Virus record (IMG/VR): IMGVR_UViG_3300031566_000001
Location: 32,001 to 96,000 of that record
Reading direction: 5' to 3' (one strand)
Source: a virus
DNA length: 64,000 nucleotides
Both the position numbers and the translations under genes were made by a program. The notes beneath the pieces are model-generated. The model worked only from the letters and a program-made list of their open reading frames with translations, did no database searches and was not told where the DNA came from. Shown piece after piece: positions 1,567-20,083 of this stretch. Numbering within the stretch: position 1 is the stretch's first letter; every line of letters begins with the position of its first letter.

Positions 1567-2601
1567 ATGTCTTACTGGAAGAATCGCCGTGTAATCGTGA
1601 CTGGCGGCGCTGGATTTCTCGGTTCCCACTTGGTTGATGCCCTGCGCCTTCTGGATTGCAAGCCGTTTGTGCCCCGTTCGGAGCAGTACGATCTGACGAC
1701 GGTTGATGGCGTGTGTGCTATGTTTGGGGATGCGATGACGCTGTGGGGCGAGCAAGGCTGTGAGACGCTGTTTCACCTGGCTGCGACCTGTGGGGGCATC
1801 GGCCTCAATCGCAAGCAGCCCGCTACGATGTGGCGGGATAATCTGCTGATGGGTTCAAACCTGCTGGATGCGGCCCACTTCTTCGATGTGAGTAAGTTCG
1901 TGGGTGTGGGTACGGTGTGCTCGTACCCGAAGCACTGCCCGACGCCGTTCTCGGAGCGGTCCTTTTGGGACGGTTACCCTGAGGAGACCAACGCACCCTA
2001 CGGCCTGGCCAAGAAGATGCTGCTGGTGGGCTTGCAGGCTTATGGGGCGCAGTTCGGCTTGCCGTGGGTGTACGTGGTGCCCACGAACCTCTATGGGCCG
2101 CGGGACCACTTCGACCCTGAAAGCTCCCACGTCATCCCGGCGATGATCCGCAAGTTCCTGGAGGCTAAGAGGGCGGGCGATCATGTGGTGTCGTTATGGG
2201 GTACGGGCAAACCGACGCGCGACTTCCTGTACGTGGGGGATTGTGTGAGGGCGCTCCTGTCAGCGGGGGAGCTGCTGGTGTCCGGTCCCTACAACGTGGG
2301 CTCAGGCCGTGAGGTCAGTATTGTGGACCTGGCTCATGTGGTGGCTAAGGCCGTGAACTACCAGGGCGATGTCAGCTTTGACGCCTCTATGCCCGATGGC
2401 CAGCCCAGGCGCGTGTTGGATAGTTCCAAGTTTGCGAAACTTACGGGGTGGCAGCCGGAGGTATCTCTGGAGGAGGGCCTGGACCGTATAGTGAAGTGGT
2501 ATGACATGGTCCAGCGCCTTGAGGATGACGAACGGGATATGACCACCAGTTGTATTGCCAAGGGGCAGCGCGCCCCTGCGGGCGCATCACCCTCGGTGTA
2601 A
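1567..2601 (+). CDS. fcl: GDP-L-fucose synthase
   Basis: VTGGAGFLG, HLAATCGGI, GTVCSYPK, YGLAKK, NLYGPRDHFDPESSHVIPAMIRKF, WGTGKPTRDFLY, PDGQPRR. Confidence 0.93.
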   Translation: MSYWKNRRVIVTGGAGFLGSHLVDALRLLDCKPFVPRSEQYDLTTVDGVCAMFGDAMTLWGEQGCETLFHLAATCGGIGLNRKQPATMWRDNLLMGSNLLDAAHFFDVSKFVGVGTVCSYPKHCPTPFSERSFWDGYPEETNAPYGLAKKMLLVGLQAYGAQFGLPWVYVVPTNLYGPRDHFDPESSHVIPAMIRKFLEAKRAGDHVVSLWGTGKPTRDFLYVGDCVRALLSAGELLVSGPYNVGSGREVSIVDLAHVVAKAVNYQGDVSFDASMPDGQPRRVLDSSKFAKLTGWQPEVSLEEGLDRIVKWYDMVQRLEDDERDMTTSCIAKGQRAPAGASPSV

Positions 2602-2626
2602 GCAAAAACATAGAAGGAGACAAGGC

Positions 2627-3295
2627 ATGAATGAGATTGCCGTATTTCAGATGGGGAAGTGTGGCTCGTCTACGGTCATCGAGTTGGCGCGGAAGTTGGG
2701 TATACACGCCTCGCGGGCGTACCATCCGATGAACCCGGTGCAGGCGCAGTACCCCAATGTCATCAGCATGGTCCGGGAGCCGGTGATCCGGAACGTCTCG
2801 GCATTCTTTTACGAAATGGCGGGCACCCTAGCGGTGACCGGCGAGGGGTACAGCCAGGTACTCCTTGACGAGTTCCTGATGTCCTGGGACAAGCACGACG
2901 TGCCGTTGACGTGGTTCTCTGAGCTGTTTCAGCCGGAGACCGGTATCAACGTCTATGCGGAGAAGTTTAACCGCAAGCGGGGCTGGTCCATCTACGAGAG
3001 CGGCGGTAGGCGCGTCCTGGTCATCAGGGCTGAGGCCCTGACGGGTAGCCTAGTGGCGGCCTTCGAGGCCTTGCTGGAGATGGACCTGGGAGTTAAGGAC
3101 GGCTTCGAGGTTGAGCACCGGGCCAGTGATGCCGAGCGGCCACACGGCGTGGGCGACCTGTACAAGGCGTTTGTGCAGCAGGCCGTGATGCCTGAGGCGT
3201 ATCTGGACCGCATGTATGGGAGCCGATACGCCAAACACTTCTACTATGCGAAGGAGCTTGATGCCTTCCGTGGATTCTGGAGTGCACCAAGATGA
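2627..3295 (+). CDS. sulfotransferase-fold capsular polysaccharide protein (NKWYS-like)
   Basis: QMGKCGSST PAPS loop, VREPVIRNVSAFF, GINVY...F, YLDRMYGSRYAKHFY. Confidence 0.7.
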   Translation: MNEIAVFQMGKCGSSTVIELARKLGIHASRAYHPMNPVQAQYPNVISMVREPVIRNVSAFFYEMAGTLAVTGEGYSQVLLDEFLMSWDKHDVPLTWFSELFQPETGINVYAEKFNRKRGWSIYESGGRRVLVIRAEALTGSLVAAFEALLEMDLGVKDGFEVEHRASDAERPHGVGDLYKAFVQQAVMPEAYLDRMYGSRYAKHFYYAKELDAFRGFWSAPR

Positions 3296-4011
3296 GGGTG
3301 TTCGTGACTACCAATGACCGGCACCTGTGGATTCTGCCGGCCTTTGCGCACCTGTTCAATCGCTACTGGAGCGAGCTGCAGCCTGTGGTGGTGGCGGGGT
3401 ACTCACAGCCGAACTTCGAGCTGCCCCCCAACTTCACATTCCACCAGATTGCCCCGCAGAACTACCCCGTGGAGAGGTGGTCTGATGGCGTGATTGAGTT
3501 CCTGCGGTCCATGGATGATGAGCTGTTCATCTGGATGCTGGAGGATATGTTGCTTCTGCGTACCGTGGACGTGCGGGCCATAGGGACCCTGGCGGAGTAC
3601 ATGATGATACACCACGAGGTCATCAGGATGGACCTCACCACGGATCGGCTCTATGCGGGGGCCTCACCGGGCCAGAGGCCCGATTATGAGTACTACGGGA
3701 GCATGGACCTGGTATGGTCTGAGCCGCACAGCCCGTATCACCTGAGCCTCCAGGCGGCGATTTGGAGGCGTGACTACTTATTGCACTACATGATTCCCGG
3801 TGAGACGCCCTGGAACCTGGAGATGGCGGGCACGGACCGGCTTTCGAGCACCCCGGAGGTGGTGGTCCTGGGCACGAGGCAGTTCCCTGTGCGGTACACG
3901 CTGGCACTAAAGAGCGACAAGCCTACGGAGCCGAGCATCACCGGGATGAGGGACGAGGACTATCGGGAACTGGTGGAGCGCGGCTGGTTGCCGGAGGGGT
4001 GTTTGACATGA
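3292..4011 (+). CDS. putative GT-A-fold glycosyltransferase-like protein
   Basis: WMLEDMLL acidic motif, SLQAAIWRR, TPWNLE; context in the glycan operon. Confidence 0.5.
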   Translation: MRVFVTTNDRHLWILPAFAHLFNRYWSELQPVVVAGYSQPNFELPPNFTFHQIAPQNYPVERWSDGVIEFLRSMDDELFIWMLEDMLLLRTVDVRAIGTLAEYMMIHHEVIRMDLTTDRLYAGASPGQRPDYEYYGSMDLVWSEPHSPYHLSLQAAIWRRDYLLHYMIPGETPWNLEMAGTDRLSSTPEVVVLGTRQFPVRYTLALKSDKPTEPSITGMRDEDYRELVERGWLPEGCLT

Positions 4012-4148: not shown

Positions 4149-4174
4149 GGCGAAATCTGAATGGAGGTTAGGAA

Positions 4175-4465
4175 ATGTCAGACGAAGTAAGAAAAGCGAC
4201 AGTGAAAGAGCAAGCGCGAGATGCGTTGCGCATCGGTACCGTCTTTGAGTTGGAATGCGCACTGAGGCGGGCGCTGGTAGAGCTACCGGGCGAAGGCAAG
4301 GTGAGCAACCAGGGACCCTGTTGCGTTGTTGGTTGCGAGAAGGAAGCCGAATGGATGATCGAGATACATCCTTACAAGCAAGACGATTTTACGACGGCCT
4401 GCACAGGACATGTGGGCGAATTACTGACTGATGCGCCGGAACATATCGTCCATAGGCCCGAGTAG
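4175..4465 (+). CDS. hypothetical protein (Cys/His-containing)
   Basis: GGAGG RBS, 96 aa ORF. Confidence 0.55.
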   Translation: MSDEVRKATVKEQARDALRIGTVFELECALRRALVELPGEGKVSNQGPCCVVGCEKEAEWMIEIHPYKQDDFTTACTGHVGELLTDAPEHIVHRPE

Positions 4466-4611
4466 TAGGGGGATTCAAAACCCCTAGTTCCTACTAAAAG
4501 GCACTCGGCAGAGGCCTGAACCATGTGCGGTGTCATAGATATCCTGATGTGTGAGCACAGGAGGTATTGGCAAAAGCGCCTGGGCCGCTGGCTGCCGGAG
4601 GGGTGTTTGAC

Positions 4612-4905
4612 GTGATGCGCAGGCTAGCCAGTTCAATGAGGGCTTGGTATGAGTATCATCATCCCCGTACCTTTGAGGATGTTGCTCCAGTCAATTGTTT
4701 TAATAGGCCGTACCTGAGCTATACCTGGGATGGTGATGTGATGTTTTGGCGGAGGCATACCTATATGGTAGAGTGGAGGCTTTGGTACGCTAATTGCATG
4801 AAGGGGCCGGTGCCCCTTTTTGAGAATAGGCGTTACTGGCAGGAGCGGCTAGGGCGGTGGCTAGCAGTTCCGTGGGCTAATAAGAGGAGAATAAGTAATG
4901 ACTGA
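4612..4905 (+). CDS. hypothetical protein
   Basis: Lower-GC ORF coupled to the next gene; start uncertain. Confidence 0.5.
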   Translation: MMRRLASSMRAWYEYHHPRTFEDVAPVNCFNRPYLSYTWDGDVMFWRRHTYMVEWRLWYANCMKGPVPLFENRRYWQERLGRWLAVPWANKRRISND

Positions 4906-5167
4906 TGAAATGAGTCCCCCCGTTGAAGTTCGGTTGCGTGATTTAGAAAGTCAGAAGCTGGGTGAGGCTTTAATTCTCTGGAAGGAAAGTGGATATCCTG
5001 AGAGTGGGCATACCATTAATATATTGCGTCAATGCGTTATCAACTATACGGCGGCACAAAAGCTTGTAGAGACTAAGGTTCAATCAATGAAAATAAGTGC
5101 TGAGCTAGAAGCGATACTTGCGCGCCAACGGGCCCATGATAAGCTGGGAGTAAGGCTAGGACTGTGA
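4898..5167 (+). CDS. hypothetical protein
   Basis: AGGAG RBS, overlaps flanking genes. Confidence 0.55.
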   Translation: MTDEMSPPVEVRLRDLESQKLGEALILWKESGYPESGHTINILRQCVINYTAAQKLVETKVQSMKISAELEAILARQRAHDKLGVRLGL

Positions 5168-6066
5168 TAACCGTCCCCCTCCGCGATGGCACCTTTCAGG
5201 GCGAGTCAATGTCCCTAAGCAGTGAGAACGCTGACGAGGCCCCGAAGTCCTTGCGCTGGCGCCACGTGCCGGATATTCCGGATGACGTGCCTGTGATGGT
5301 GTTCACGGATATGTGCCTGGATGAGGTTCTGCTGAGCCGGGCACCCACGAACATCGCCATCCTCATCGAGCCACCCGCACTCACTGCCACGCACTATGAG
5401 CAGGCCGTGATGCTGGAGGACCGTTTTGATGCCATATTCACCTACAGTCTGGAGCACCTACGGCGCGGGGGTCCGTGGCGGTTCTATCCCTATGGCGGTT
5501 CGAGGATCCGCGAGTGGGGCGTGTTTGACAAGAGCGCGGACGTGAGCATCATCGTATCGGTCAAGGCGGTCACGGAGGGCCACCGGCTGAGGCATGAGAT
5601 CGTCAAGCAGTTCGGTGAGTGCCTGTCTGTGTTTGGGGAGCCCTATACCGAGTACCTGGACCCTAAGCCGCCGGGGCTGAGGCCCTTCCGCTATTCCGTC
5701 GTCATCGAGTCCGGGCGTTCTGACTACTATTTCACGGAGAAGCTGATTGACTGCTTCTCGCAGGGCACGGTGCCGATCTATTGGGGGTGCCCTGGCATTG
5801 ATGGATTCTTCGACGAAGATGGAATTATCAGCTTTGAGACCCCGGACGACCTGGCATACATCCTGGCGTCCATCTCGGAGCAGGACTATTACGACCGTTT
5901 GCCTGCGATTTGCAGGAACCTGGAGCTGGCGCGCGGGTTCCGGTGTGCTGAGGACCATCTGGCGGCGGAGTACGGCTGGCTCTTCGAGGATAGTGAGGAG
6001 GCGGCCATGATGCGTGCACAGCGCAAAGAGCAATGGGGGGCTTTGTGTGAGAACCAACCTCACTGA
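5164..6066 (+). CDS. glycosyltransferase family 10 (alpha-1,3/4-fucosyltransferase-like)
   Basis: FRYSVVIES...YFTEKLIDCFSQGTVPIYWG GT10 motif. Confidence 0.85.
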   Translation: MITVPLRDGTFQGESMSLSSENADEAPKSLRWRHVPDIPDDVPVMVFTDMCLDEVLLSRAPTNIAILIEPPALTATHYEQAVMLEDRFDAIFTYSLEHLRRGGPWRFYPYGGSRIREWGVFDKSADVSIIVSVKAVTEGHRLRHEIVKQFGECLSVFGEPYTEYLDPKPPGLRPFRYSVVIESGRSDYYFTEKLIDCFSQGTVPIYWGCPGIDGFFDEDGIISFETPDDLAYILASISEQDYYDRLPAICRNLELARGFRCAEDHLAAEYGWLFEDSEEAAMMRAQRKEQWGALCENQPH

Positions 6067-6093
6067 CAAACGACTATTCTTGGAGGTATTCAC

Positions 6094-6399: not shown

Positions 6400-6807
6400 G
6401 TGCTAAAGATTATCTATGATAATGGTCATGTAAGGATTGATGAACAGGAGAATTTGTACTGGCATGGCCCGACGCTTGGCCAAGAAGGCGGAACATGGTG
6501 GAGACAATGGTACTCGCACCCCGACATTTTCATTAAGGGTTCTGGCCCGTGTCGGTGTTACATACATTGGGTCGAAATCAAGACAGGTAAGCACATCGTC
6601 TTGGCTTACGATTTGGCTGCCCAGAGGGAGCAACCTTTAGTAATGTCTTCGGCGCATGGGTGTCAACTGGTAGCCTTTGACGAATTGCTTTTTCCAGAAG
6701 GTTCACTATTGAATGTCAATGATAGGGAGGTCAGGGATATAGGATATAATGGCCCGCATCTGAAGGAGCCGCCGGAGTGGTTCAATGCAGACGACTTTAC
6801 TGGATAG
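6400..6807 (+). CDS. hypothetical protein
   Basis: AGGAGG RBS before GTG; lower GC. Confidence 0.55.
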   Translation: MLKIIYDNGHVRIDEQENLYWHGPTLGQEGGTWWRQWYSHPDIFIKGSGPCRCYIHWVEIKTGKHIVLAYDLAAQREQPLVMSSAHGCQLVAFDELLFPEGSLLNVNDREVRDIGYNGPHLKEPPEWFNADDFTG

Positions 6808-7516
6808 TGATAAGCGCCTATTCTTCATCATCGGCCCGCCCCGGTCTGGTACGACCATCGTAGCCAGCGTGTTCAACTCCCTAGAGGATGGGTTCTGCCT
6901 TGGGGAACCGCACTGGCTCCACGAGGCCGAGAAAGGCGAGGCGGACGCGCAGACTTACGGGAAGGTAGAACAGTGGCGCAGGCCTGTGGATGATTATCAG
7001 CTCATCATGCAGGTCAACGTGATACCGATTCTAAACCGGGGGCCGTTTCACGTTGGGGGCTACAAGGAGACCTGGCAATACTTCCGTCATACCTGCGAGC
7101 CGCTGTTGGCGGCGCACGTTCCGTTGGTGGACTTCTTCGTGGTGGTGCTGAGGGACCCGAGGCTGGCCTTGGCCTCACAGCGGGCCTTGGGCTGGCAACA
7201 CCTGAGGCCCAGGGATACCAGCAAGGACTATCTGCGGTTGGGCGAACTGGCGCAGCACCCAAAGGCTGTGCTGGTGATCCTGGAGGACTTCGTGGTGGAC
7301 CCGCTGGGGTATCTGAATACGAGGCTCCCCTTCCAGATTGAGGGGCCTTTGGAGCTGCAACCTACAGGGCACAGGTTTGGGGATACGGTTGCCAATGAGA
7401 GTGAAACGGTGAACGCGGATGCGCCGGGGCAGAGGGTTATGGACCTGAATGAGAAATGGGTCCGGGCACTGGCCCCGGCTATGGGGGTATGGGAGCGATG
7501 GAAGAGCAAGACCTGA
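6785..7516 (+). CDS. sulfotransferase
   Basis: FFIIGPPRSGTT 5'-PSB loop; VLRDPRLALAS 3'-PB motif. Confidence 0.85.
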   Translation: MQTTLLDSDKRLFFIIGPPRSGTTIVASVFNSLEDGFCLGEPHWLHEAEKGEADAQTYGKVEQWRRPVDDYQLIMQVNVIPILNRGPFHVGGYKETWQYFRHTCEPLLAAHVPLVDFFVVVLRDPRLALASQRALGWQHLRPRDTSKDYLRLGELAQHPKAVLVILEDFVVDPLGYLNTRLPFQIEGPLELQPTGHRFGDTVANESETVNADAPGQRVMDLNEKWVRALAPAMGVWERWKSKT

Positions 7517-8325
7517 GAGCATTGATGAGACGATACACGGTGGAGCACCTGGATCCTGGGGAGCACCTGGATCCTGGCTGGTTTGGCACCTTCTACGGCA
7601 CTGCGGCGGCTCAGTTTCAGCGGCACATTGAGTCCCTGCCGGGTACGGTATACGGCGATGACCCCAAGCAGAGGCCGTTTGATAACGTATTCACCTGGGG
7701 CCACGATCATGACTTCGGGGCCTTTCAGATGAAGGGCCAGATGGGAGACCGGCACATCCGGGTCATTGAGGCCTTCCTGGAGATGGGCGCGGAGTTCAAG
7801 GGCCATGTGCTAGATGTGGGCTGCTGGACGGGTGGCACGTCGCTCCTACTGGCAGCGATGGGGTGCACGGTGACGGCCATTGAGGAGGCAGTGCAATATG
7901 CCGATGTGGTTTCATACTTGGGCCACGTTTTCCAGGTGCAGGGCCTTGTTGTCATCCCTAATTCTATTTATGATGAGGGCCGCTTCGCTGAGCCTTATGA
8001 TATGATCCTGTGTGCGGGCGTCCTGTATCACGTCACTGATCCGGTGCGTGCTCTGCGCATCATATTTGAGAAGTTGGTGGACGGCGGCACGCTGCTGCTG
8101 GAGACCGCGGTTCATCAGGGTGGCGGCAAGCTCCTGACCTATTGTGGCCCTACCGCGCCAGGCTATCGATGGTTCCTGCCTACGGCGGAAACGCTGGTTG
8201 CGATGTTGATTGACGTGGGGTTTACAGACCTAGAGTATGGGTTGCGTGCCGACGGTAGCCGGATTGTCGTGGTTGCTACAAGGAAGGAGTACACGACCAT
8301 GATGACGGCGGGGGTATCAAGATAA
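7498..8325 (+). CDS. class I SAM methyltransferase (CmoB/DUF1698-like)
   Basis: VLDVGCWTGG, YDMILCAGVLYH, GGTLLLET. Confidence 0.8.
   Translation: MEEQDLRALMRRYTVEHLDPGEHLDPGWFGTFYGTAAAQFQRHIESLPGTVYGDDPKQRPFDNVFTWGHDHDFGAFQMKGQMGDRHIRVIEAFLEMGAEFKGHVLDVGCWTGGTSLLLAAMGCTVTAIEEAVQYADVVSYLGHVFQVQGLVVIPNSIYDEGRFAEPYDMILCAGVLYHVTDPVRALRIIFEKLVDGGTLLLETAVHQGGGKLLTYCGPTAPGYRWFLPTAETLVAMLIDVGFTDLEYGLRADGSRIVVVATRKEYTTMMTAGVSR
7542..7577 (+). repeat. in-frame 18-bp tandem duplication (EHLDPG x2)
   Basis: GGAGCACCTGGATCCTGG twice. Confidence 0.8.
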
Positions 8326-12669: not shown

Positions 12670-13478
12670 TGAACGAACAGCAACTCAAAGACGCCTTTGC
12701 ATCACTGGAGCCGATGAGTGACGAGGCCCCGCCCCGGTACACGTGGGAGCGGCACAGGTGGGAGATGCGGCGCCATGTGCGTCGGGATCCCATCGCGGTA
12801 TTCCTGAGCTGGCCCACGGTGACGGCCACCATGTTTGCGGGGGAGACCCCCTTCATCCGGTCTGAGCTGGAGGCCCTGCGGGCGCAGCCTGATTGGGAGA
12901 CCCTTTGGCTTCCGGCCATTGAGGACAGCGGCGTGGGCCAGGCCCCGAGGATGTCAGGGGAGCCGTCTACGAACGCCAATATGGTGCATCAGGCGTTTCA
13001 CCTGATGATGTGGAACAAGGCTACGCTCAAGGAACTGCGGGATCTGGAGACCATCACGGAGTTCGGCGGGGGCTATGGGGCTATGGCCCTGATTGCCTCA
13101 CGGCTGGGGTTCCGCGGGACCTACCGGATGGTGGACTTTCCGGAGATGTGCCTGCTTCAGAGCTACTACCTGTCGCGGCATGAGCTGGGCTGTGCGGTGG
13201 AGTTCCTGGAGGCCATCGGGCCGCCACGTTCGGACCTGTTGGTGGCCTGTTATTCATTGAGTGAAGTCCCGTTGGCGGACCGTAAGCCCTACCTTGGCGG
13301 GGGCCGTACGGATCATGGAGCGGCCAGTTACCTCTTTGCCATGCAGGACCGTTGGGATGACGTGGACAACCTGGATTGGGTATATGATTTTGAGATGAAT
13401 GAGAGGGATGACCTGCTGTGGTCCATCTTCCCGATGGTGAGGCCGGGGCACTGGTACGCGATGGGGGGAATGAAGTGA
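12666..13478 (+). CDS. putative sugar O-methyltransferase
   Basis: ITEFGGGYG, VDFPEM..LQ.YYL, YSLSE. Confidence 0.7.
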   Translation: MMNEQQLKDAFASLEPMSDEAPPRYTWERHRWEMRRHVRRDPIAVFLSWPTVTATMFAGETPFIRSELEALRAQPDWETLWLPAIEDSGVGQAPRMSGEPSTNANMVHQAFHLMMWNKATLKELRDLETITEFGGGYGAMALIASRLGFRGTYRMVDFPEMCLLQSYYLSRHELGCAVEFLEAIGPPRSDLLVACYSLSEVPLADRKPYLGGGRTDHGAASYLFAMQDRWDDVDNLDWVYDFEMNERDDLLWSIFPMVRPGHWYAMGGMK

Positions 13479-15757
13479 CCTATGATTCATTTCTTAAATC
13501 GAAGAGGATGATTAGGCGTGATCGGGGCAAAGAGTTTACTACCGATGACGTGCATTCTAAGCTGTTTGCTTTCCAGCGGGATATTACGCTCTGGGCAGTA
13601 CGGAAGGGCATGGCAGCGGTATTCGCTGATACCGGGCTGGGCAAGACCTTCATTCAATTGGAATGGGCCAGGTTGCTAGGGGAGAAAACGCTCATTATTG
13701 CCCCGCTCAGTGTGGCCAGGCAAACGGTAAGAGAAGCTCGCAAGATTGATCTTGAAATAGGTTATGTTCGTAGTCAAGATGCGGTTGTGGGCGACGGTCA
13801 GCTCTGGATAACGAACTATGAAATGGTGAACGCCTTTGATGTATCGGCATTCGGCGCGGTGGTGCTGGACGAATCCAGTATATTGAAATGCATCTCAGGC
13901 AAGACGCGCCGCAAGCTGACGGAGGCTTGTCAGGCTGTTCCCTATCGCCTGTGTTGCACAGCAACGCCTGCCCCGAATGACTTCATAGAGCTGGGCAATC
14001 ATGCGGAGTTTTTGGGCGTGTGTTCGCGTGCTGAGATGCTGGCTATGTTCTTCGTCAATGCTAACAAAGAGCATACTATGTTTGTCAATGGAAAGTCGTA
14101 TCGCAGGAAGGGGAGCAATAAGGGCGGCCAGGAGTGGCGGTTGAAGCACCATGCCGAAGAGCCTTTCTTCCGCTGGTTGGCATCTTGGGCTATGGCCATA
14201 CGGAAGCCGTCTGACTTGGGATATGACGATATGGATTTCAGACTTCCTGCACTTAGGCTGCATAAGCACTTTGAGCAGGCGAAGTATGAGCCGGGTGATA
14301 GGCTGTTTTTCACTCGCGCTAGGGGTATAAGGGAGCATTCGGCTATTCGTAGAGCGACGCTTGGCCCACGCCTTGAACGGCTTCAGGAGATCATTGACGG
14401 AGACGGCCAACAGTGGATAGTCTGGGTGGGGCTGGATGAGGAAGGCCGGGCTGCGACGGAGGCTCTGGACGGTGCGGTAGAAGTCAAGGGTAGTGATTCG
14501 CCTGACTACAAGGCCAGTTCCTTTGAGGACTTTCAGGATGGCAAGTTTCGTGTGCTTGTGACCAAACCTACTATCGGCGGGTTCGGCATGAACTTCCAGA
14601 ATGCCCACAAGATGGCGTTCCTGGGGCTTTCGCACTCGTGGGAACAATACTATCAGTGTGTGCGCAGGGAGTGGAGGTATCTTCAGGAGCACCCTGTAGA
14701 CGTGCACCTGATTATGTCGGATATCGAGGCTGATGTGTACCGCAACGTGATGCGTAAGGATGCCCAGGCCAGGCGGCTACGGGAAGGTTTGATTGGCAAG
14801 ATGCATCTTTATGAGAGGGAGGAATTGGGGATGGGAACGTCTGTAGTGCAAGATCAGGCAGGATGTGTTGTCAAAGGCAATACTTGGAAAGCGTTGCGGG
14901 GCGACTCCTGCGAGAGGCTGGCGGAACTTGACAATGATTCGGTAGACCTGTGCATATACTCACCGCCGTTTGCTGATCTCTATACGTATAGTGATAGCCC
15001 CCGCGACCTGGGCAATTCGCGTGATTGGAAGGAGTTCTTGTGTCACTATTCTTTTGTGATCCGGGAGGTTTTGCGTGTAGTCAAGCCGGGGCGCTTGTGC
15101 TGCGTTCACACCTCAGACATCCCGGCGTTGGCGCAGAAGGATGGGTATATCGGCATCAAGGATTTTCCTGGCGCGGTGATCGCTGCGCACGAGGCGGAGG
15201 GATGGGTATTCCATGGACGCATTCTAGTCGGCAAAAACCCGCAGGCCCAGGCCATACGGACGCACTCTAAGGCGCTGTTGTTTGTCCAGTTGCGTAAGGA
15301 CTCAGCGGACAGTCGCCCGGCGCTTGTCGATCATGTTCTGTTGTTCAAGAAACCCGGTGAGAACGCTGTGCCGGTGACTCCGGTAGAAAACGGTGAGATG
15401 GACAATGACCTATGGGTACAGTGGGCTAATGGGATCTGGACTGATATTCAGGAGACGGATACTCTTCAGTACCAGCACGCGCGGGAGGCCGATGATGAGA
15501 AGCATATTTGCCCCTTGCAATTGCCGACGATCCGGCGGTGCGTGATGCTCTATTCCAATCCTGGAGAGACAATACTATCACCGTTTGCGGGCATCGGTAG
15601 TGAGGGTTTTGAGTCTGTCAAGGCCGGGCGGGGTTTCGTGGGTATAGAGCTGAAACCAGAGTATTTCGAGGTCATGGTCGGAAACCTCCAGAAAGCGGAG
15701 GCTGTAGCGAATCAGCCTGATTTGTTTTCGTTAGTCAATGAGGAGTCAGCGCAATGA
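13475..15757 (+). CDS. SNF2-like helicase fused to an N4/N6 DNA methyltransferase
   Basis: DTGLGKT, VLDESS, TATP, FGMNFQ; C-half YSPPF, HICPLQ, SPFAGIGS. Confidence 0.85.
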   Translation: MTYDSFLKSKRMIRRDRGKEFTTDDVHSKLFAFQRDITLWAVRKGMAAVFADTGLGKTFIQLEWARLLGEKTLIIAPLSVARQTVREARKIDLEIGYVRSQDAVVGDGQLWITNYEMVNAFDVSAFGAVVLDESSILKCISGKTRRKLTEACQAVPYRLCCTATPAPNDFIELGNHAEFLGVCSRAEMLAMFFVNANKEHTMFVNGKSYRRKGSNKGGQEWRLKHHAEEPFFRWLASWAMAIRKPSDLGYDDMDFRLPALRLHKHFEQAKYEPGDRLFFTRARGIREHSAIRRATLGPRLERLQEIIDGDGQQWIVWVGLDEEGRAATEALDGAVEVKGSDSPDYKASSFEDFQDGKFRVLVTKPTIGGFGMNFQNAHKMAFLGLSHSWEQYYQCVRREWRYLQEHPVDVHLIMSDIEADVYRNVMRKDAQARRLREGLIGKMHLYEREELGMGTSVVQDQAGCVVKGNTWKALRGDSCERLAELDNDSVDLCIYSPPFADLYTYSDSPRDLGNSRDWKEFLCHYSFVIREVLRVVKPGRLCCVHTSDIPALAQKDGYIGIKDFPGAVIAAHEAEGWVFHGRILVGKNPQAQAIRTHSKALLFVQLRKDSADSRPALVDHVLLFKKPGENAVPVTPVENGEMDNDLWVQWANGIWTDIQETDTLQYQHAREADDEKHICPLQLPTIRRCVMLYSNPGETILSPFAGIGSEGFESVKAGRGFVGIELKPEYFEVMVGNLQKAEAVANQPDLFSLVNEESAQ

Positions 15758-17019
15758 TCTTTTCCAATCGTCACGAGGTGGAGACACACCTGGCTGAGCA
15801 GGCTGACGGCGGCGTGATTGTAGAGGTTGGGGTGGGCAAGGGTGACGGGTTGGTGGCCCTGCTCAACGGCACCCGTTACGGAAGGCTCTTGCCCGTGTAT
15901 GCCGTGGATCCCTACGCGCCATACGTGGACAAATTGGGTGGCACCTACGGCCCGGAGTGCAAGCAGGAAGCCGTCGATCAGGTGGTGGGTACGGGCCTGG
16001 GGCGTTTGGTGGCCTTCGTCGAAGAGGACGGCGTGCTGGTGGGCGAGAATTGGGACTTGCCTACGGCCCTGGTGTGGATTGACGTGTCTATGGAGTACGA
16101 CGGTCTCAAATGCGTCTGGGATGCCTGGGCGGACAAGGTTATGGAGGACGGGCACATCGCCATCGCGGGGCTGGGTTACAGTAGCTTGGGCACGGCGCGG
16201 GTGATGCAGGAGGCCGTGGACTCAGGGAACTTCGTGCGGGTACTGGAGGGGCAAGACCGGGTGGCCGTGCTGCGCAGGAATCCACGGCACAGGAGGGCCG
16301 CGTTCTACATCGTGGATGGTGAGCCGTATGCAGATGAGGCGGCCTATAGCGCGTCCAGCCTCAAGGAGCACATGCCCAGGGTGGAGACCTTCCTGTTCGC
16401 TGTGGGGGGCACGAAGGACAGGGATTGCATTGACCACGTAGTGACGTTGCCCCCTCGGGAGAGCGAACTGTGGTACCTGGACAGCACGCGGTACTTCAAT
16501 TGGGCTGTGGGGCAGCTTCATGAGTACAACCGGCTCTTGTACCTTGATACGGATACGTGGGTGTCCTGGGATTGCCTGGATATGTGGTGGCTCCTGGAGC
16601 AGTTCGACGTGTGCCTGGGTCATTCTGCGGGCCGGGAGGCCATGCCCAGTGCTATCGGAACGCCGCCTGCGTTCACCACGCTGTCCATCGGGGTGAGCCT
16701 CTTCTGCAACAACGCGAAGGTCCGGGCCACACTGGCGGACTGGCAGGCATTCTATGAGAAGTACGCGCATATCTACGGCGACAATGACGAGTCGCCCCTG
16801 CGGGACGTGCTGTGGCTCAACCGTCACGGGCTGAAAATGTATATCCTGCCCCCGGAGTACAATGCGCGTGTGGGCTTCGGGTGCTGGCTCTATGGGCGGG
16901 TCCGGGTAGTCCATGCCCGGCTGCCCCGGCTTCGGCATGTGGCGGAGGAGCTGAATGAGCACACGGTCATGCGCATGTGGCGTCCTGATGATGGGTTCCT
17001 GTGGTATCACCAGAAGTGA
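15754..17019 (+). CDS. methyltransferase-like domain fused to a GT8-like glycosyltransferase
   Basis: VEVGVGKG in the N-half; LYLDTD, DESPLR, LPPEYN in the C-half. Confidence 0.75.
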   Translation: MIFSNRHEVETHLAEQADGGVIVEVGVGKGDGLVALLNGTRYGRLLPVYAVDPYAPYVDKLGGTYGPECKQEAVDQVVGTGLGRLVAFVEEDGVLVGENWDLPTALVWIDVSMEYDGLKCVWDAWADKVMEDGHIAIAGLGYSSLGTARVMQEAVDSGNFVRVLEGQDRVAVLRRNPRHRRAAFYIVDGEPYADEAAYSASSLKEHMPRVETFLFAVGGTKDRDCIDHVVTLPPRESELWYLDSTRYFNWAVGQLHEYNRLLYLDTDTWVSWDCLDMWWLLEQFDVCLGHSAGREAMPSAIGTPPAFTTLSIGVSLFCNNAKVRATLADWQAFYEKYAHIYGDNDESPLRDVLWLNRHGLKMYILPPEYNARVGFGCWLYGRVRVVHARLPRLRHVAEELNEHTVMRMWRPDDGFLWYHQK

Positions 17020-17026
17020 GGGGGAC

Positions 17027-17770
17027 GTGAGCGACGGCTGCGGGCGGTTCATAGGGCCATATCCTTGCTGCACCATCATCACGGGTGACGCTAAGGAGCT
17101 TACTCCGGCGATACCGGATGAGAGCGTGGACTTGATAGTGACTGACCCGCCCTACTTCTTGCCAGTTCAGTCCTATGTTGGGGTGCGTGGTGAGGGCTAT
17201 ACGAGGAGGACGCTGGCTGACACGTCGATACTTTCTGGATTCTTTGGGGATCTATTTGCGGATTTGGGCCGTGTTCTAAAGCAGACGGGAAGCGCCTATG
17301 TCTTCTGTGATGGGCAGAGTTACCCGCTGTTCTATCCAGCCATGTTTCCGCACTTCAAGTATGTGCGGCCCCTGATATGGGACAAGATTGTTTCCTACAA
17401 CGGATACACGTGGCGACACCAGCATGAGTTGATTGCGTGGGGCGAAGGAGTGGGGGCGCAGAGGGTTCCCACGGGCGATGGGGACATTCTGAGATGTAGG
17501 GGGGTTCTCCAGAAAGACAGAAGGCATCCCGCAGAAAAGCCACTCGCTCTATTGCAGCAACTCATAGCCAAGCATGAACGGGGGCGGGTTGTATTGGACC
17601 CATTTGTTGGCTCAGGGACCACCCCCATAGCCGCATGGCTAGAGGGCGATCACTACCTCGCCTTCGAGATAGACCCCGACGTAGCAGAGCGGGCGAGGGA
17701 GCGGGTGAGGAACACCCAGCCACCCCTCTTCGTGATGCAGCCAGAGCAGACAATACTAGAACTGGAATGA
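17027..17770 (+). CDS. DNA N6-adenine methyltransferase (beta class)
   Basis: TDPPY, HPAEKP, LDPFVGSGTT. Confidence 0.88.
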   Translation: MSDGCGRFIGPYPCCTIITGDAKELTPAIPDESVDLIVTDPPYFLPVQSYVGVRGEGYTRRTLADTSILSGFFGDLFADLGRVLKQTGSAYVFCDGQSYPLFYPAMFPHFKYVRPLIWDKIVSYNGYTWRHQHELIAWGEGVGAQRVPTGDGDILRCRGVLQKDRRHPAEKPLALLQQLIAKHERGRVVLDPFVGSGTTPIAAWLEGDHYLAFEIDPDVAERARERVRNTQPPLFVMQPEQTILELE

Positions 17771-17780
17771 GGTGTAACCA

Positions 17781-18074
17781 ATGGATAGTAACGTACTCAC
17801 TCACAGCGCGGTGCTCCCAAGGCGCAACGTCAAGCGGCTGCGGCGTTGCCTGAACCCTCAATGCCTCTACGTGGCGGGCGGCGGCAAGATGCCTTTGAAG
17901 ATCACTCGCATTGGCGAGTATACCCGGCTTGGTTGCTCCAAGTGCGGGTCCGTAAGTGTGTTCAACCCGGTAGCGACGGTAAGGCCTGACAAGGCCAGGC
18001 ACATCTTCGTGGCTCGTGACCGTGGGGGCGTGGTGGAGCACATCTTCCCCAAGGCGAGGGTATTGGTACCGTGA
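17781..18074 (+). CDS. hypothetical Zn-ribbon protein
   Basis: CLNPQC and CSKC; GAGG RBS. Confidence 0.55.
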   Translation: MDSNVLTHSAVLPRRNVKRLRRCLNPQCLYVAGGGKMPLKITRIGEYTRLGCSKCGSVSVFNPVATVRPDKARHIFVARDRGGVVEHIFPKARVLVP

Positions 18075-18550
18075 GAAGGCGTTACTTCGAGTGGGACTAT
18101 GTCGCCAACAGGGTCATTGAGTGGGTGCGTGTGGGTACGTGCTGCCGGTGCGGTGCGTGTTGCCGGGGGTCCATCGGTTACAATTTCGAGAATGTTAAGA
18201 CGTACCATGCGAATAAGGCGGGCGGCTATTATACCACTGGCAGGGGTGTCTGGCAGGAGATCCGTGCGGGCCGGTATCGGCACTTTTTCCGGATGGAGTA
18301 CATGGCCGTGAAGGGGCGGGGGTGGTGTGGCAGTTTCGAGAATGGCCTTTGTGCTGAGTATGAGCATCGGTCCTGGATTTGCCGGGAGTGGCCCTTCTCG
18401 CCCCGGTGCATTGCGCCGTTTGCGGAGTGCACCTATGGGTTCCGTGAGGTAGACCGCTGGCCGTTCGTGGTGGATGTCCCCAAGGATCCGGCAAAAGAGG
18501 GGAAGGATGCTGGCGGTTTTGTTCATGTGCCGCGGAGAGGGGTCCCGTGA
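18071..18550 (+). CDS. YkgJ-like CxxCxxCC cysteine-cluster protein
   Basis: CCRCGACC and CAEYEHRSWICREWPF. Confidence 0.75.
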   Translation: MRRRYFEWDYVANRVIEWVRVGTCCRCGACCRGSIGYNFENVKTYHANKAGGYYTTGRGVWQEIRAGRYRHFFRMEYMAVKGRGWCGSFENGLCAEYEHRSWICREWPFSPRCIAPFAECTYGFREVDRWPFVVDVPKDPAKEGKDAGGFVHVPRRGVP

Positions 18551-19215
18551 TCACTAAGCGCCTGGTTTACATCCACGTCTTCCGGACCGGCGGGTACATG
18601 GTGCAGGGGGTCTTGCGAAAGGTCCCTGGCCTGGTGATGGTCTCTGACAGGCCCACGGAGCACCTCACCTATGCACAGATGACCACGGTATGCGCTCAGC
18701 AGCGCATGTCGAGGCCACTGGCTGCTGTGTTCGTTCGCAACCCGTTTGACTGGTACGTGTCGATGTGGTGCTGGGTCAATACGGCCCCGAATGTGCCTTC
18801 CTTCCCTAGCTTCCGGGCATACCTGGGGGCGATTGATGAGAGGCGCTTTGGCATCACGGGAACGGGGCGCAACTACAGCAGATTCACCGACCATTGGAAG
18901 GACATGGGTGCTGACTCAGCAAAGTGGACGGGACGTTTCGAGCGCCTGCAGGAGGACTTCGTGGCCATCATGCTGGAGGCCATGCCTGAACTGGTGAACG
19001 AGAAGATGCTGAGGCGCCTTATAGTCAAGGAACCCATCCATCACCCCAGCAGGCATCCCCAGACCGGCAAGCACCCAGGGGCCTATCAGCAGTACTACGA
19101 TGCGGAGACGAGGGCGCTGGTAGAGGGGTGGGACGGCGCGCTGTTGGAGCGCTTCGGCTACAATTTCGAGGGGGAGGAGGCGGATGATGAAGATTTATCC
19201 CATACCGGTGCCTGA
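18547..19215 (+). CDS. sulfotransferase family 2-like protein
   Basis: YIHVFRTGG, FVRNPFDWYVS, GRFERL, YQQYYD...D..LLERFGY. Confidence 0.8.
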   Translation: MITKRLVYIHVFRTGGYMVQGVLRKVPGLVMVSDRPTEHLTYAQMTTVCAQQRMSRPLAAVFVRNPFDWYVSMWCWVNTAPNVPSFPSFRAYLGAIDERRFGITGTGRNYSRFTDHWKDMGADSAKWTGRFERLQEDFVAIMLEAMPELVNEKMLRRLIVKEPIHHPSRHPQTGKHPGAYQQYYDAETRALVEGWDGALLERFGYNFEGEEADDEDLSHTGA

Positions 19216-20083
19216 CGAGTTCCGGCCTGCCAGTCAGGGCTATGCCATGCCGCCACACTGCCCGGTGGAGGGTTACGGCGTGGAGCAGGACTTCGACCTG
19301 TGGCTCCGGCAGCGCCCTACCATTCTGGCCCCAAGTATTGAGGAAGCTGATTGGTACTACCTACCGGTGTACTGGAATCGTCTTTTTATCGCTACCTGGA
19401 AGTGGGCTCAGGATGAGGCCGCTATTGAGCGGTGCACCCGGTATATCGAGGACCTCCGGGGGGCCTTGGACTTCTCGCGGGTGTTCACCGTCTGCGAGTG
19501 GGACCTGACCACGGAACGGCAGGAGATCGGGATTGGGGAGATGACCGTGCTCACGGCAGGGCGGCGGGACCACACGGGCATCGATGTCCCTTTGCTCTGC
19601 GCGCCCCATGGTGTCCCTCCCATGCAATATGCCAAGCGGCACCTGGCGTCGTTCGTGGGCAACGTCGGAACCTCCGGCTGGCGTCAGGCCATGCAGGAGG
19701 CCCTAGAGGTCTATGACGGGTGCCTGATTGAGCACGCGCAGAACGGTTCCGCCTACTTCCGGGACGTGATGACTGAGAGCTACGTAGCCCTGGCCCCCAG
19801 GGGGCACCGGGGTCAATCGTTCAGGTTCTACGAGGCCATGGACATGGGCGTGGCCCCGGTGCTGATCGGCGACATGGACACGCGGCCCTTCAAGAACTGG
19901 ATTGATTGGGACTCATGCTCGTACTACGTGCCTGACGCCTCGGAGTTGCCGGGGTTCCTAGACGGCCTTGATTTGGAGGACGCGCTTCGTCGCGGTGTAC
20001 GGGCGGCGCAGGTGTATCATGAGGAGCTGCGGTTTGGAAGGTGGTGCCGGTTCGTTGTGCCGGAGCTTTTGAGCGTGCCGTGA
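19184..20083 (+). CDS. exostosin-family (GT47) glycosyltransferase
   Basis: ADWYYLP, ASFVG, LAPRG...SFRFYEAMDMGVAPV...PF...IDW. Confidence 0.8.
   Translation: MMKIYPIPVPDEFRPASQGYAMPPHCPVEGYGVEQDFDLWLRQRPTILAPSIEEADWYYLPVYWNRLFIATWKWAQDEAAIERCTRYIEDLRGALDFSRVFTVCEWDLTTERQEIGIGEMTVLTAGRRDHTGIDVPLLCAPHGVPPMQYAKRHLASFVGNVGTSGWRQAMQEALEVYDGCLIEHAQNGSAYFRDVMTESYVALAPRGHRGQSFRFYEAMDMGVAPVLIGDMDTRPFKNWIDWDSCSYYVPDASELPGFLDGLDLEDALRRGVRAAQVYHEELRFGRWCRFVVPELLSVP

What the first reader, a model, noticed from the sequence alone, without database searches (positions are those of the whole stretch)
1567..20083. 18.5-kb phage-encoded glycan biosynthesis and tailoring island (fucosylation, sulfation, O-methylation)
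Seen: one co-oriented, largely overlapping gene run between the lysis genes and the hairpins at ~20090. It encodes Fcl, GT10, GT47, two GT8-like domains, another GT-A-like protein, three sulfotransferase-fold proteins, about six non-DNA SAM methyltransferase domains, a radical SAM/SPASM enzyme and a Cys-cluster protein. No Wzx/Wzy/ABC exporter, priming transferase, Gtr-type membrane protein or Gmd is visible, and the enzymes look soluble. Known: Fcl makes GDP-fucose, the GT10 donor; sulfotransferases use PAPS; serotype-converting phages normally use membrane proteins. Inference: the acceptor is cytoplasmic, most simply the virion (see the GT at 58816) or phage DNA, giving a sulfated, methylated, fucosylated coat far more elaborate than typical phage GT cassettes.
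Basis: partly seen in the sequence, partly recalled or inferred. Interest (0 to 1): 0.8.

Follow-up and report, generated by a model that had tools for sequence, protein, structure and literature searches.

The report
Phage island for fucosylated, sulfated, methylated glycan
An uncultured, apparently lytic ~77-kb phage devotes about a quarter of its genome to soluble enzymes that should build a fucose-containing, sulfated and methylated sugar chain; in related phages the same genes sit beside the presumed capsid gene, so the chain most likely coats the virus particle, though nobody has shown this directly.

Summary
The gene run at 1567-20083 is real and its contents are largely as described. 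It holds an Fcl-type GDP-fucose synthase, a GT10 fucosyltransferase, a GT47-like transferase and two paralogous retaining GT-A domains, each fused to an MT_24 methyltransferase. It also holds one firmly established PAPS-type sulfotransferase, two motif-level sulfotransferase candidates, and six non-DNA methyltransferase domains. All proteins are soluble, and I found no exporter, Gmd or PAPS-synthesis gene in the whole record.

Corrections:
- The island also carries two DNA methylases, one fused to an SNF2 helicase, in swappable slots.
- The "radical SAM" protein lacks the canonical CX3CX2C motif.
- The 143-kb record is two related phage genomes joined head to tail. The "GT at 58816" therefore belongs to the sister genome; this island's own copy lies outside the window.

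All 16 shared enzyme genes are under purifying selection (dN/dS 0.09-0.23).

In 79 related viral contigs, homologues of the island's genes lie between the putative capsid gene and a conserved triple glycosyltransferase. This supports virion glycosylation (confidence about 0.55). Remodelling of a host lipid-linked polysaccharide remains a live rival. DNA glycosylation is unlikely.

This scan has already reported similar islands on other DNA, and on the sister copy in this same record.

The parts
488..1409 (+). Lysis cassette directly upstream: Amidase_2 endolysin (488-1033) and a small multi-TM holin-like protein (1044-1409)
   Evidence: Pfam Amidase_2 26.1 bits; PHROG endolysin; hydropathy scan. 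No terminator-like site was predicted between it and the island.
1567..2601 (+). Fcl-type GDP-4-keto-6-deoxymannose 3,5-epimerase/4-reductase (GDP-L-fucose synthase family)
   Evidence: NCBIfam GDPFucSynFcl scores 254 bits, below the equivalog cut-off of 500. PDB Fcl E 1e-55 to 1e-61 over the full length. Catalytic Thr/Tyr/Lys, Cys and His align with E. coli Fcl.
2555..3295 (+). NKWYS-family protein and candidate sulfotransferase. The true start is probably Met25 (2627), as in copy B
   Evidence: Pfam NKWYS 35.3 bits against cut-off 25.1. GKCGSST and REPVIRNVS motifs. Not linked to the 6785 family by hhalign.
3292..4011 (+). Phage-specific family, possibly GT-A-like. It is the island gene most often found in the capsid-to-triple-GT slot of relatives
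   Evidence: No Pfam, NCBIfam or PDB match. Atlas lead to viral clusters in which 25% of members carry GT2. Seen in 27 related loci.
4175..5167 (+). Three small ORFs of unknown function found only in copy A. Copy B has a ParB-N/DNA methylase gene in this slot
   Evidence: No match in copy B; Pfam on the copy-B gene.
5164..6066 (+). GT10-type fucosyltransferase
   Evidence: Pfam GT10 20.3 bits, below cut-off 23.9. A four-sequence profile matches only fucosyltransferases in PDB (2nzw 1.3e-9, FUT9).
6785..7516 (+). PAPS-type sulfotransferase, from a rare family
   Evidence: 104 hits among 1.84 billion representatives. 5'-PSB GLPRSGTT and 3'-PB RxP motifs. PDB profile hits TPST1/2 and CurM ST. AF2 pLDDT 96.4. 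Foldseek top hits are TPST and olefin-synthase ST.
7456..8325 (+). Class I SAM methyltransferase (MT_23/MT_11 type)
   Evidence: Pfam.
8537..9076 (+). MT_24 methyltransferase a
   Evidence: Pfam 55 bits. Homologues lie next to GT47 in L050-L055.
9710..10234 (+). MT_24 methyltransferase b
   Evidence: Pfam 27 bits. Homologues lie next to GT47 in relatives and in Mucilaginibacter loci.
10236..10985 (+). SPASM-domain protein with a non-canonical radical-SAM-like N-terminal part (listed ORF begins at 10110)
   Evidence: Pfam SPASM 33.5 bits; Radical_SAM 25.3 bits, below cut-off 29.5. Has CX8CX8C instead of CX3CX2C.
11041..12219 (+). Bifunctional protein: retaining GT-A domain (residues 1-~240, LALDADV motif) followed by an MT_24 methyltransferase
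   Evidence: Pfam MT_24 64 bits. hhalign of the N-terminal domain against the GT-A domain of 15754: 99.6%, E 1e-23.
12666..13478 (+). NanM-like putative sugar O-methyltransferase (weak support)
   Evidence: NCBIfam TIGR04371 23.5 bits, below cut-off 44. Homologues occur in the capsid slots of relatives.
13418..15757 (+). SNF2-helicase/N6_N4 DNA methylase fusion, not part of the glycan chemistry. It occupies a variable slot
   Evidence: Pfam. The same slot holds a 478-aa DNA methylase in copy B and a 615-aa one in L044.
15754..17019 (+). Bifunctional protein: MT_24 methyltransferase followed by a retaining GT-A domain (LYLDTDT motif). It is the most conserved island gene (90% between A and B)
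   Evidence: Pfam. The GT-A domain stands alone in relatives. AF2 pLDDT 72.6, and Foldseek matches GT6 blood-group transferases, a3GalT and the LARGE1 GT8 domain.
16955..17770 (+). N6_N4 DNA methylase, not part of the glycan chemistry
   Evidence: Pfam 78 bits. Absent from L044.
17781..18550 (+). Conserved 97-aa protein of unknown function and a CxxCxxCC (putative Zn/Fe-binding) protein
   Evidence: Pfam CxxCxxCC 22.4 bits against cut-off 23. Both are conserved in copy B.
18547..19215 (+). Candidate sulfotransferase (Sulfotransfer_2-like), found almost only in this phage group
   Evidence: FRTGGY and RNPFDWYVS motifs. Pfam E 0.04. PDB SULT7A1 E 0.004. Only 5 homologues found. Not linked to the 6785 family by hhalign.
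19184..20083 (+). GT47 (exostosin-like) glycosyltransferase
   Evidence: Pfam 46.1 bits against cut-off 33.4. 55 homologues, all from metagenomes. Cellular homologues occur in polysaccharide loci.
20089..20154 (+). Two GC-rich hairpins, the first followed by a U-rich tract: likely terminator closing the late transcription unit
   Evidence: Sequence; fold dG -41.1 kcal/mol, z -2.2.
20377..20405 (+). The only perfect TTGACA-17-TATAAT promoter in the window; it starts the next module
   Evidence: One match against 0.01 expected. The same arrangement follows GT47 in copy B, L043, L044 and L046.
57262..58761 (+). Putative major capsid protein of the sister genome (copy B). Copy A's gene lies outside the window at record 14270-15769
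   Evidence: Gene order terminase-portal-...-this gene. Atlas lead to SU10_MCP. No Pfam or PDB support.
58816..61449 (+). Triple glycosyltransferase (GT4 + GT2 + GT2) of copy B, 55 nt after the putative capsid gene. Copy A's orthologue (82% identical) is at record 15831-18470
   Evidence: Pfam; comparison of A and B; conserved downstream of the capsid gene in 41 relatives.

Best explanation
The island is the tailoring and extension half of a phage-encoded glycosylation system. Its core is the triple GT4-GT2-GT2 enzyme encoded next to the putative capsid gene.

Proposed mechanism (inferred unless marked shown):
1. Late in infection the structural, lysis and island genes are transcribed as one unit. 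That unit ends at the hairpins at about 20090-20154.
2. Fcl converts host-made GDP-4-keto-6-deoxymannose into GDP-L-fucose.
3. The soluble triple GT starts a glycan directly on virion proteins in the cytoplasm.
4. GT10 (fucose), GT47, the two GT-A/MT_24 fusion enzymes and possibly the 3292 protein extend the glycan. The fused and free MT_24, MT_23 and NanM-like methyltransferases O-methylate the sugars just added.
5. One sure and two candidate sulfotransferases add sulfate from host PAPS, to sugars or possibly to tyrosines.
6. The result would be a negatively charged, methylated, fucose-containing coat on the particle.

Shown here: the enzyme families, their solubility, their conservation and their gene neighbourhoods.

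The DNA methylases interspersed in the island are separate, swappable anti-restriction genes.
For: - Enzyme identities.
- All island proteins are soluble, and the 143-kb record has no polytopic membrane protein.
- All 16 enzyme genes shared by the two genome copies have dN/dS 0.085-0.23, the same range as terminase, portal and capsid.
- Among 79 viral contigs with a homologue of the capsid candidate, 41 show a full-length triple GT downstream (median gap 4.3 kb). In 26 of these, homologues of this island's genes lie in between, followed by the same two structural genes. Only one contig lacks the triple GT.
- L188 carries an NKWYS-type protein, Fcl and GT10 in that slot.
- In L054 and L053 the triple GT (52% identical) is contiguous with GT47, the MT24/GT-A fusion, MT_24 genes and a Sulfotransfer_1 gene.
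- No terminator-like site lies between the lysis genes and the island. The hairpins plus a consensus promoter after GT47 are conserved in five relatives.
- No integrase is present, so lysogenic conversion is unlikely.
- Precedents: mycobacteriophage glycosyltransferases and an O-methyltransferase modify capsid and tail tube (PMC11600133, PMC12619734, both citing Freeman 2023). Chlorovirus A064R is a GT-GT-methyltransferase fusion that builds the capsid glycan (PMC9614988).
Against: - There is no direct evidence of any glycan on any virion protein.
- The capsid identity of the 499-aa protein has no Pfam or PDB support.
- No Ser/Thr-rich tail or other candidate acceptor feature was found. The capsid of the one relative without the triple GT shows no telling difference.
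- In this phage the island lies about 18 kb from the structural core, not beside the capsid gene.
- GT47, the 6785-type sulfotransferase, 18547, the SPASM protein and MT_23 were not seen in the capsid slots of relatives.
- Cellular GT47 homologues work in a lipid-linked polysaccharide pathway.
- Two of the three sulfotransferases rest on motif-level evidence only.
Confidence: 0.55

Rival explanations
1. Host envelope remodelling. The soluble phage enzymes act at the inner face of the membrane on the host's undecaprenyl-linked O-antigen, capsule or EPS intermediates. They add fucose, methyl and sulfate groups, and the host's own ABC transporter exports the altered polymer. The changed cell surface would block superinfection or stop progeny sticking to debris.
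For: Cellular homologues of the GT47-like enzyme (35-41% identical) occur in Mucilaginibacter, Pedobacter and other genomes among GT2/GT4 genes. In M. phyllosphaerae the locus holds Wzz/kinase, a Wzt ABC ATPase with Wzt_C, MT_23, two GT11 fucosyltransferases and acyltransferases. By established knowledge, such pathways use soluble or peripheral transferases, so lack of a phage exporter does not exclude this reading. NKWYS is annotated as a capsular polysaccharide synthesis family.
Against: The record has no integrase, so lysogenic conversion is unlikely. The island sits at the end of the late unit, which leaves little time to change the surface. In relatives the homologous genes sit between the capsid and neck genes, not at the moron sites typical of conversion cassettes. 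No Gtr, Wzy, Oac or other membrane protein is present.
Confidence: 0.2
2. Mixed or other cytoplasmic acceptor. Part of the island acts on something other than a virion glycan. Examples are tyrosine sulfation of phage or host proteins by the TPST-like enzyme, methylation of proteins, or synthesis of a free sulfated oligosaccharide or glycolipid.
For: The nearest solved relatives of the 6785 sulfotransferase, by sequence profile and by fold, are tyrosylprotein sulfotransferases. MT_24 and MT_23 domains have no proven sugar specificity here. GT47, the 6785-type and 18547 sulfotransferases and the SPASM protein are not found in the capsid slots of relatives.
Against: MT_24 domains are twice fused to GT-A domains, which points to sugar substrates. 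GT47 lies next to the triple GT in L054 and L053. Fold similarity to TPST is moderate (TM 0.55-0.63) and covers the shared PAPS-binding core.
Confidence: 0.15
3. DNA hypermodification. The transferases glycosylate phage DNA to evade restriction.
For: Two DNA methylases and an SNF2 helicase domain lie inside the island. Phage GTs that glycosylate DNA are known (PMC12619734, citing Pyle 2024).
Against: The record has no thymidylate-synthase-like hydroxymethylase and no C5 DNA methylase, and no TET/JBP match (the control for that search was silent). The methylases are amino-methylases in swappable slots that differ between near-identical strains. Fucose, sulfate and O-methyl chemistry, and the capsid-side synteny, do not fit known DNA glycosylation.
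Confidence: 0.04

Closest known systems
Mycobacteriophage virion O-glycosylation (Che8, cluster O/Corndog, Myrna; Freeman et al. 2023, known here through PMC11600133 and PMC12619734)
   Same: Both have phage-encoded soluble glycosyltransferases plus an O-methyltransferase. In the mycobacteriophages these modify capsid and tail-tube subunits in the cytoplasm of a lytic infection.
   Different: The mycobacteriophage systems have about three GTs and one methyltransferase. This phage has about 16 conserved enzymes plus a triple GT, and adds GDP-fucose synthesis, a GT10, a GT47 and sulfotransferases. There is no sequence relationship to the mycobacteriophages (terminase about 25% identical to Streptomyces phages). 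No acceptor site has been identified, and no experiment exists.
Chlorovirus PBCV-1 capsid glycan machinery (A064R GT-GT-methyltransferase, A061L) and giant-virus glycan clusters (PMC9614988)
   Same: Both have virus-encoded cytoplasmic GTs fused to SAM methyltransferases that methylate the sugar just added, and virus-encoded sugar-nucleotide synthesis. Some Megavirinae clusters include sulfate-metabolism genes.
   Different: Those are eukaryotic giant viruses. The domain families differ (the phage has MT_24 fused to a GT6/GT8-like GT-A domain). The phage has sulfotransferases but no PAPS synthesis genes.
ABC-transporter-dependent O-polysaccharide/capsule loci of bacteria (e.g. the Mucilaginibacter phyllosphaerae locus in L132)
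   Same: These loci share the GT47-like subfamily (35-41% identity), fucosyltransferases, MT_23 and MT_24 methyltransferases and several GT2/GT4 genes. Assembly is by soluble enzymes.
   Different: The phage has no Wzm/Wzt, Wzz, priming transferase or acyltransferase_3 membrane proteins. Its genes are embedded in a virion and lysis transcription unit.
Serotype-converting phage cassettes (Gtr, Oac, Wzy-type)
   Same: Both are phage-borne glycan-modifying genes.
   Different: Conversion cassettes rely on membrane proteins and a temperate lifestyle. Neither membrane proteins nor an integrase is present here.

Membership tests
GDP-L-fucose synthase (Fcl/GFS) | Full-length SDR with the catalytic Ser/Thr-Tyr-Lys triad plus the Cys and His epimerisation residues | tested here: met
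   Aligns with E. coli Fcl 1bws over residues 8-312. GTVC, YGLAK and SSHVIPA align with S107/C109, Y136/K140 and H179.
GDP-L-fucose synthase (Fcl/GFS) | NCBIfam equivalog score of at least 500 bits | tested here: not met
   Scores 254 bits. It is a divergent family member, so the product sugar is inferred.
GT10 fucosyltransferase | Pfam gathering score reached, or a specific match to solved GT10 enzymes | tested here: inconclusive
   Pfam 20.3 bits is below the 23.9 cut-off. A profile of four homologues matches only fucosyltransferases in PDB, over the GDP-fucose-binding C-terminal domain (1.3e-9).
PAPS-dependent sulfotransferase (6785-7516) | 5'-PSB loop and 3'-PB motif on a sulfotransferase fold | tested here: met
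   GLPRSGTT and RxP are invariant across 48 homologues. PDB profile hits only sulfotransferases. AF2 pLDDT 96, and Foldseek top hits are TPST and the olefin-synthase ST. Pfam 26.4 bits against a cut-off of 27.
PAPS-dependent sulfotransferase (2555-3295 and 18547-19215) | Statistically supported homology or fold match to sulfotransferases | tested here: inconclusive
   Both have motif-like strings. 2555 matches NKWYS in Pfam. 18547 scores Pfam E 0.04 and PDB ST E 0.004. hhalign against the 6785 family is not significant for either.
GT47 (exostosin-like) | Pfam gathering score reached | tested here: met
   46.1 bits against a cut-off of 33.4, covering profile positions 53-280 of 293.
Radical SAM enzyme | CX3CX2C cluster motif and Pfam gathering score | tested here: not met
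   Scores 25.3 bits, below 29.5. The cysteines are spaced CX8CX8C. Only the SPASM domain passes its cut-off.
Phage virion glycosylation system (mycobacteriophage type) | Phage-encoded soluble GTs with a methyltransferase, in a lytic phage | tested here: met
Phage virion glycosylation system (mycobacteriophage type) | Glycan demonstrated on capsid or tail-tube subunits | not testable with these tools
   This needs mass spectrometry of particles. Only synteny with the capsid candidate is available.
Serotype-converting phage cassette | Membrane-embedded Gtr/Wzy/Oac-type proteins and a temperate lifestyle | tested here: not met
   No polytopic membrane protein. No tyrosine or serine integrase.
Phage DNA glycosylation (hypermodified bases) | An enzyme that makes a hydroxymethyl-pyrimidine or other acceptor base | tested here: not met
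   No Thymidylat_synt and no C5 methylase. No Tet_JBP match, but its control search was silent.

The most novel reading that the evidence does not exclude
A tailed phage of bacteria coats its own particle with a self-made polyanionic glycan that is fucosylated, O-methylated and sulfated, or carries sulfotyrosine as well. It draws only on host GDP-4-keto-6-deoxymannose and PAPS. This phage group has expanded a lineage-wide capsid-side glycosylation slot into a separate 18.5-kb island. I found sulfated virion glycans described for no phage in the held literature.
Probability: 0.35. Interest if true: 0.85.

Novelty: new variant of a known kind. Interest (0 to 1): 0.6.

Why it matters
Virion glycosylation by phage-encoded enzymes has been shown only for a few mycobacteriophages, where it blunts antibody recognition. 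If this reading holds, the phenomenon is widespread in an unrelated environmental phage lineage and can reach the chemical complexity of giant-virus capsid glycans.

Sulfation would be new for phage particles. It would change particle charge, adsorption, stability and recognition. The island also offers a compact set of soluble fucosyl-, sulfo- and methyl-transferases, including GT/methyltransferase fusions and a rare sulfotransferase family, for enzymology.

The finding is weakened because it rests on gene content and synteny alone. It is also a repeat: this scan has already reported the same kind of island several times, including the sister copy in this record.

Tried and rejected
- Megablast of the island and the structural region against 50,697 phage records found nothing. 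The terminase is only about 25% identical to phiC31-like Streptomyces phages, so host and taxon remain unknown.
The long contigs that carry the closest GT47 and capsid homologues could not be fetched.
- A single-protein scan of viral contigs with GT47 found nothing. The alignment-based scans worked.
- The capsid candidate gave no Pfam, PHROG or PDB match, as a single sequence or as a 3- or 28-sequence profile.
- I looked for a capsid acceptor feature: Ser/Thr-rich stretches, a C-terminal tail, and indels specific to the one relative without the triple GT. There was no signal.
- A PDB profile search with the GT-A domain was not significant. Only the structure prediction placed it.
- The 3292 family gave no PDB match with a 23-sequence profile.
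- hhalign failed to link the two candidate sulfotransferases to the proven one. A homologue search for 18547 returned only five close relatives, too few for a useful profile.
- Misassembly of a host locus is rejected. The island and its flanks recur in copy B and in contigs L043 and L044.
- The prophage-boundary explanation is rejected: no integrase is present.
- Freeman et al. 2023 (PMC10527164) is not held, so it is cited only through papers that describe it.

Full report
**Where the window lies.** The window is bases 32001-96000 of a 143,142-bp IMG/VR virus record. A self-comparison shows that the record is two collinear, related phage genomes joined head to tail. Copy A runs from 1 to about 77.4 kb and copy B from about 77.4 kb to the end, where it is truncated. 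The two are 70-94% identical at the nucleotide level, and nearly every gene pairs up. An independent 38.7-kb viral contig is 96-100% identical to copy A's structural proteins. It shows the order 'right end of A, junction, terminase'. The unit genome is therefore about 77 kb. Many relatives have direct terminal repeats, so this genome probably has terminal repeats too, and the concatenation is most simply an assembly join between two strains.

This has two consequences.

**The observation.** Twenty-eight + strand ORFs fill 1567-20083, many with overlapping stop and start codons.
- Upstream are an Amidase_2 endolysin and a small multi-TM holin-like protein.
- Downstream are two GC-rich hairpins, the first followed by a U-rich tract.
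- After the hairpins comes the only perfect TTGACA-17-TATAAT in the window. The same arrangement follows GT47 in copy B and in three other contigs.
- No terminator-like site lies between the lysis genes and the island.

The island therefore looks like the 3' end of the late (structural plus lysis) transcription unit. This is an inference from sequence only.

**Enzyme identities.**
- *1567-2601, Fcl.* This is a divergent but complete GDP-L-fucose synthase homologue with all catalytic residues.
- *5164-6066, GT10.* It falls below Pfam's cut-off as a single sequence, but as a small profile it matches only fucosyltransferases in PDB.
- *19184-20083, GT47.* It passes the Pfam cut-off.
- *GT-A domains.* 15754-17019 is an MT_24 methyltransferase fused to a C-terminal domain that stands alone in relatives and carries an LYLDTDT motif. 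The N-terminal domain of 11041-12219 is its paralogue (hhalign 99.6%) and is fused to another MT_24. The predicted structure (pLDDT 72.6) matches GT6 blood-group transferases, alpha-3-GalT and the LARGE1 GT8 domain. These are retaining GT-A enzymes.
- *6785-7516, sulfotransferase.* The family is rare, with 104 hits among 1.84 billion representatives. The 5'-PSB and 3'-PB motifs are invariant. The PDB profile hits only sulfotransferases. The model has pLDDT 96 and its best fold matches are tyrosylprotein sulfotransferases and the olefin-synthase sulfotransferase.
- *2555-3295 and 18547-19215.* These two look like sulfotransferases at the motif level only.
- *Further methyltransferases.* These are MT_23 (7456), MT_24 (8537 and 9710) and a weak NanM-like protein (12666).
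- *10110-10985.* This protein has a SPASM domain but not the canonical radical-SAM cysteine motif.
- *3292-4011.* It belongs to a phage-specific family with only a language-model lead to GT2.

13418-15757 is an SNF2-helicase/DNA amino-methylase fusion, and 16955-17770 is a second DNA methylase. The slot between the NanM-like gene and the MT24/GT-A gene holds a DNA methylase of different architecture in copy A, copy B and contig L044. Copy B carries a ParB-N/methylase elsewhere. These are swappable genes, most simply anti-restriction methylases, and are not part of the glycan chemistry.

**Absences.** The whole record has no Gmd, no APS kinase and no polytopic membrane protein. It also has no tyrosine or serine integrase. 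All island proteins are soluble by hydropathy. The phage must therefore draw GDP-4-keto-6-deoxymannose and PAPS from its host, and it appears to be lytic.

**Are the genes functional?** The 16 enzyme genes shared by copies A and B have dN/dS of 0.085-0.23 at dS of about 1. Terminase, portal, capsid candidate and DnaB fall in the same range. Contigs L043 and L044 from other samples carry the right two-thirds of the island at 77-98% protein identity, followed by the same downstream phage genes. A misassembled host locus is excluded.

**What is the acceptor?** The key test was comparative. A profile of the 499-aa protein encoded just before the triple GT retrieved 79 viral contigs (35-51% identity) with 10-kb flanks.
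- In 41 contigs a full-length homologue of the triple GT follows the capsid candidate, at a median distance of 4.3 kb.
- In 26 of those 41, the intervening genes include homologues of this island's own genes: the 3292 family (17), Fcl (11), the GT-A/MT_24 fusion (8), NanM-like (7), MT_24 (6) and GT10 (3).
- The triple GT is then followed by homologues of the same two structural genes as in this phage.
- Only one contig goes from capsid to the next structural gene without the triple GT.
- One relative (L188) has an NKWYS-type protein, Fcl and GT10 in that slot.
- In contig L054 a 52%-identical triple GT lies inside a pure glycan island with GT47, the MT24/GT-A fusion, MT_24 genes, an aminotransferase and a Sulfotransfer_1 gene.

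The island and the triple GT therefore form one system, and in this lineage that system is tied to the head genes. In this phage the capsid-to-triple-GT slot is empty (55 nt) and the tailoring genes sit at the end of the late unit.

GT47, the 6785-type sulfotransferase, 18547, the SPASM protein and MT_23 are rare or absent in the other 50 records searched whole. One complete 79.7-kb relative also has GT47 in a distal position after its tail genes. This phage group has thus expanded the system well beyond the usual slot.

**Limits of that argument.**
- The capsid identity of the 499-aa protein rests on gene order and one Atlas lead to SU10_MCP. Pfam, PHROGs and PDB profiles are all silent.
- I found no acceptor feature in it.
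- Synteny shows association with head morphogenesis genes, not the chemistry of attachment.

**The main rival.** That does not follow. Cellular homologues of the GT47-like enzyme are common in Mucilaginibacter and Pedobacter and occur in other phyla. In M. phyllosphaerae the gene sits in a classical ABC-transporter-dependent polysaccharide locus with Wzz/kinase, Wzt with its C-terminal glycan-binding domain, MT_23, two GT11 fucosyltransferases and acyltransferases. By established knowledge, such pathways finish the whole chain on undecaprenyl diphosphate with soluble enzymes. A phage could hijack one and rely on the host's transporter. Three points argue against this: the lack of an integrase, the late position of the island, and the capsid-side synteny in relatives. 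I put it at about 0.2.

**DNA as acceptor.** The record has no thymidylate-synthase-like hydroxymethylase and no C5 methylase, and no TET/JBP match (the control for that last search was silent). The DNA methylases are amino-methylases in variable slots. This reading is unlikely.

**A nuance on sulfation.** The nearest solved relatives of the proven sulfotransferase are tyrosylprotein sulfotransferases. Direct tyrosine sulfation of a protein cannot be excluded. The similarity mostly covers the shared PAPS-binding core.

**Comparison with what is known.** The closest experimentally shown system is mycobacteriophage virion glycosylation, where tandem GTs downstream of an O-methyltransferase modify capsid and tail tube (PMC11600133, PMC12619734, both citing Freeman et al. 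2023). That paper is not held here. The closest in complexity and logic is the chlorovirus and giant-virus capsid glycan machinery. It includes the GT-GT-methyltransferase fusion A064R, and some Megavirinae clusters carry sulfate-metabolism genes (PMC9614988). Full-text searches found no description of phage-encoded sulfotransferases acting with fucosyltransferases on virions.

Within this scan the same kind of island has been reported several times on other DNA, and on the sister copy B of this very record. My synteny result agrees with those notes but was obtained independently.

**Verdict.** The virion-glycan reading is the best supported but unproven (0.55). I classify it as a new variant of a known kind and score interest at 0.6.

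Noticed in passing
whole record; junction near window 45400: The 143-kb 'complete' virus record is two related ~77-kb phage genomes (70-94% nt identity) joined head to tail, with the second truncated. Any count or coordinate that treats it as one genome is misleading.
   Followed up: yes
window 13418-15757 and 16955-17770; L011:4957-6393; L044:5417-7264; L010:14864-16090: DNA amino-methylases of four different architectures (SNF2 fusion, ParB-N fusion, 478 aa, and 615 aa with a DnaJ-type Zn finger) occupy variable slots inside the glycan island in otherwise near-identical strains.
   Followed up: partly
window 20377-20405: The only perfect sigma-70 consensus promoter in 64 kb sits just after the island's terminator hairpins. 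It is conserved at the same place in copy B and three other contigs, so it is probably the start of the early region.
   Followed up: partly
window 24208-27913: A cluster of a MoxR-like AAA protein, a DUF5131 (phage Gp37/Gp68) protein (254 bits) and a DUF2201 metallopeptidase/VWA protein. DUF5131 is present in copy A but has no counterpart in copy B.
   Followed up: no
window 49639-50712: A 357-aa protein with an Lcl C-terminal domain lies between terminase and portal in copy B. Copy A has different genes at this position.
   Followed up: no
window 10236-10985: A SPASM-domain protein has N-terminal cysteines spaced CX8CX8C instead of the radical-SAM CX3CX2C. It is conserved at 86% between the two copies with dN/dS 0.085.
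   Followed up: partly
L132 (Mucilaginibacter phyllosphaerae) 65-17547: The cellular GT47-like homologue lies in an ABC-transporter polysaccharide locus with two GT11 fucosyltransferases and an MT_23 next to Wzt. This GT47 subfamily may be generally linked to fucose-containing glycans.
   Followed up: partly
G006 (79.7-kb viral record with terminal repeats) 43824-45268: This is the only one of 50 capsid-lineage records with a GT47 homologue. The gene lies about 32 kb downstream of the capsid gene, after the tail genes and next to a GT2-like gene. It is a second example of a distal island.
   Followed up: partly
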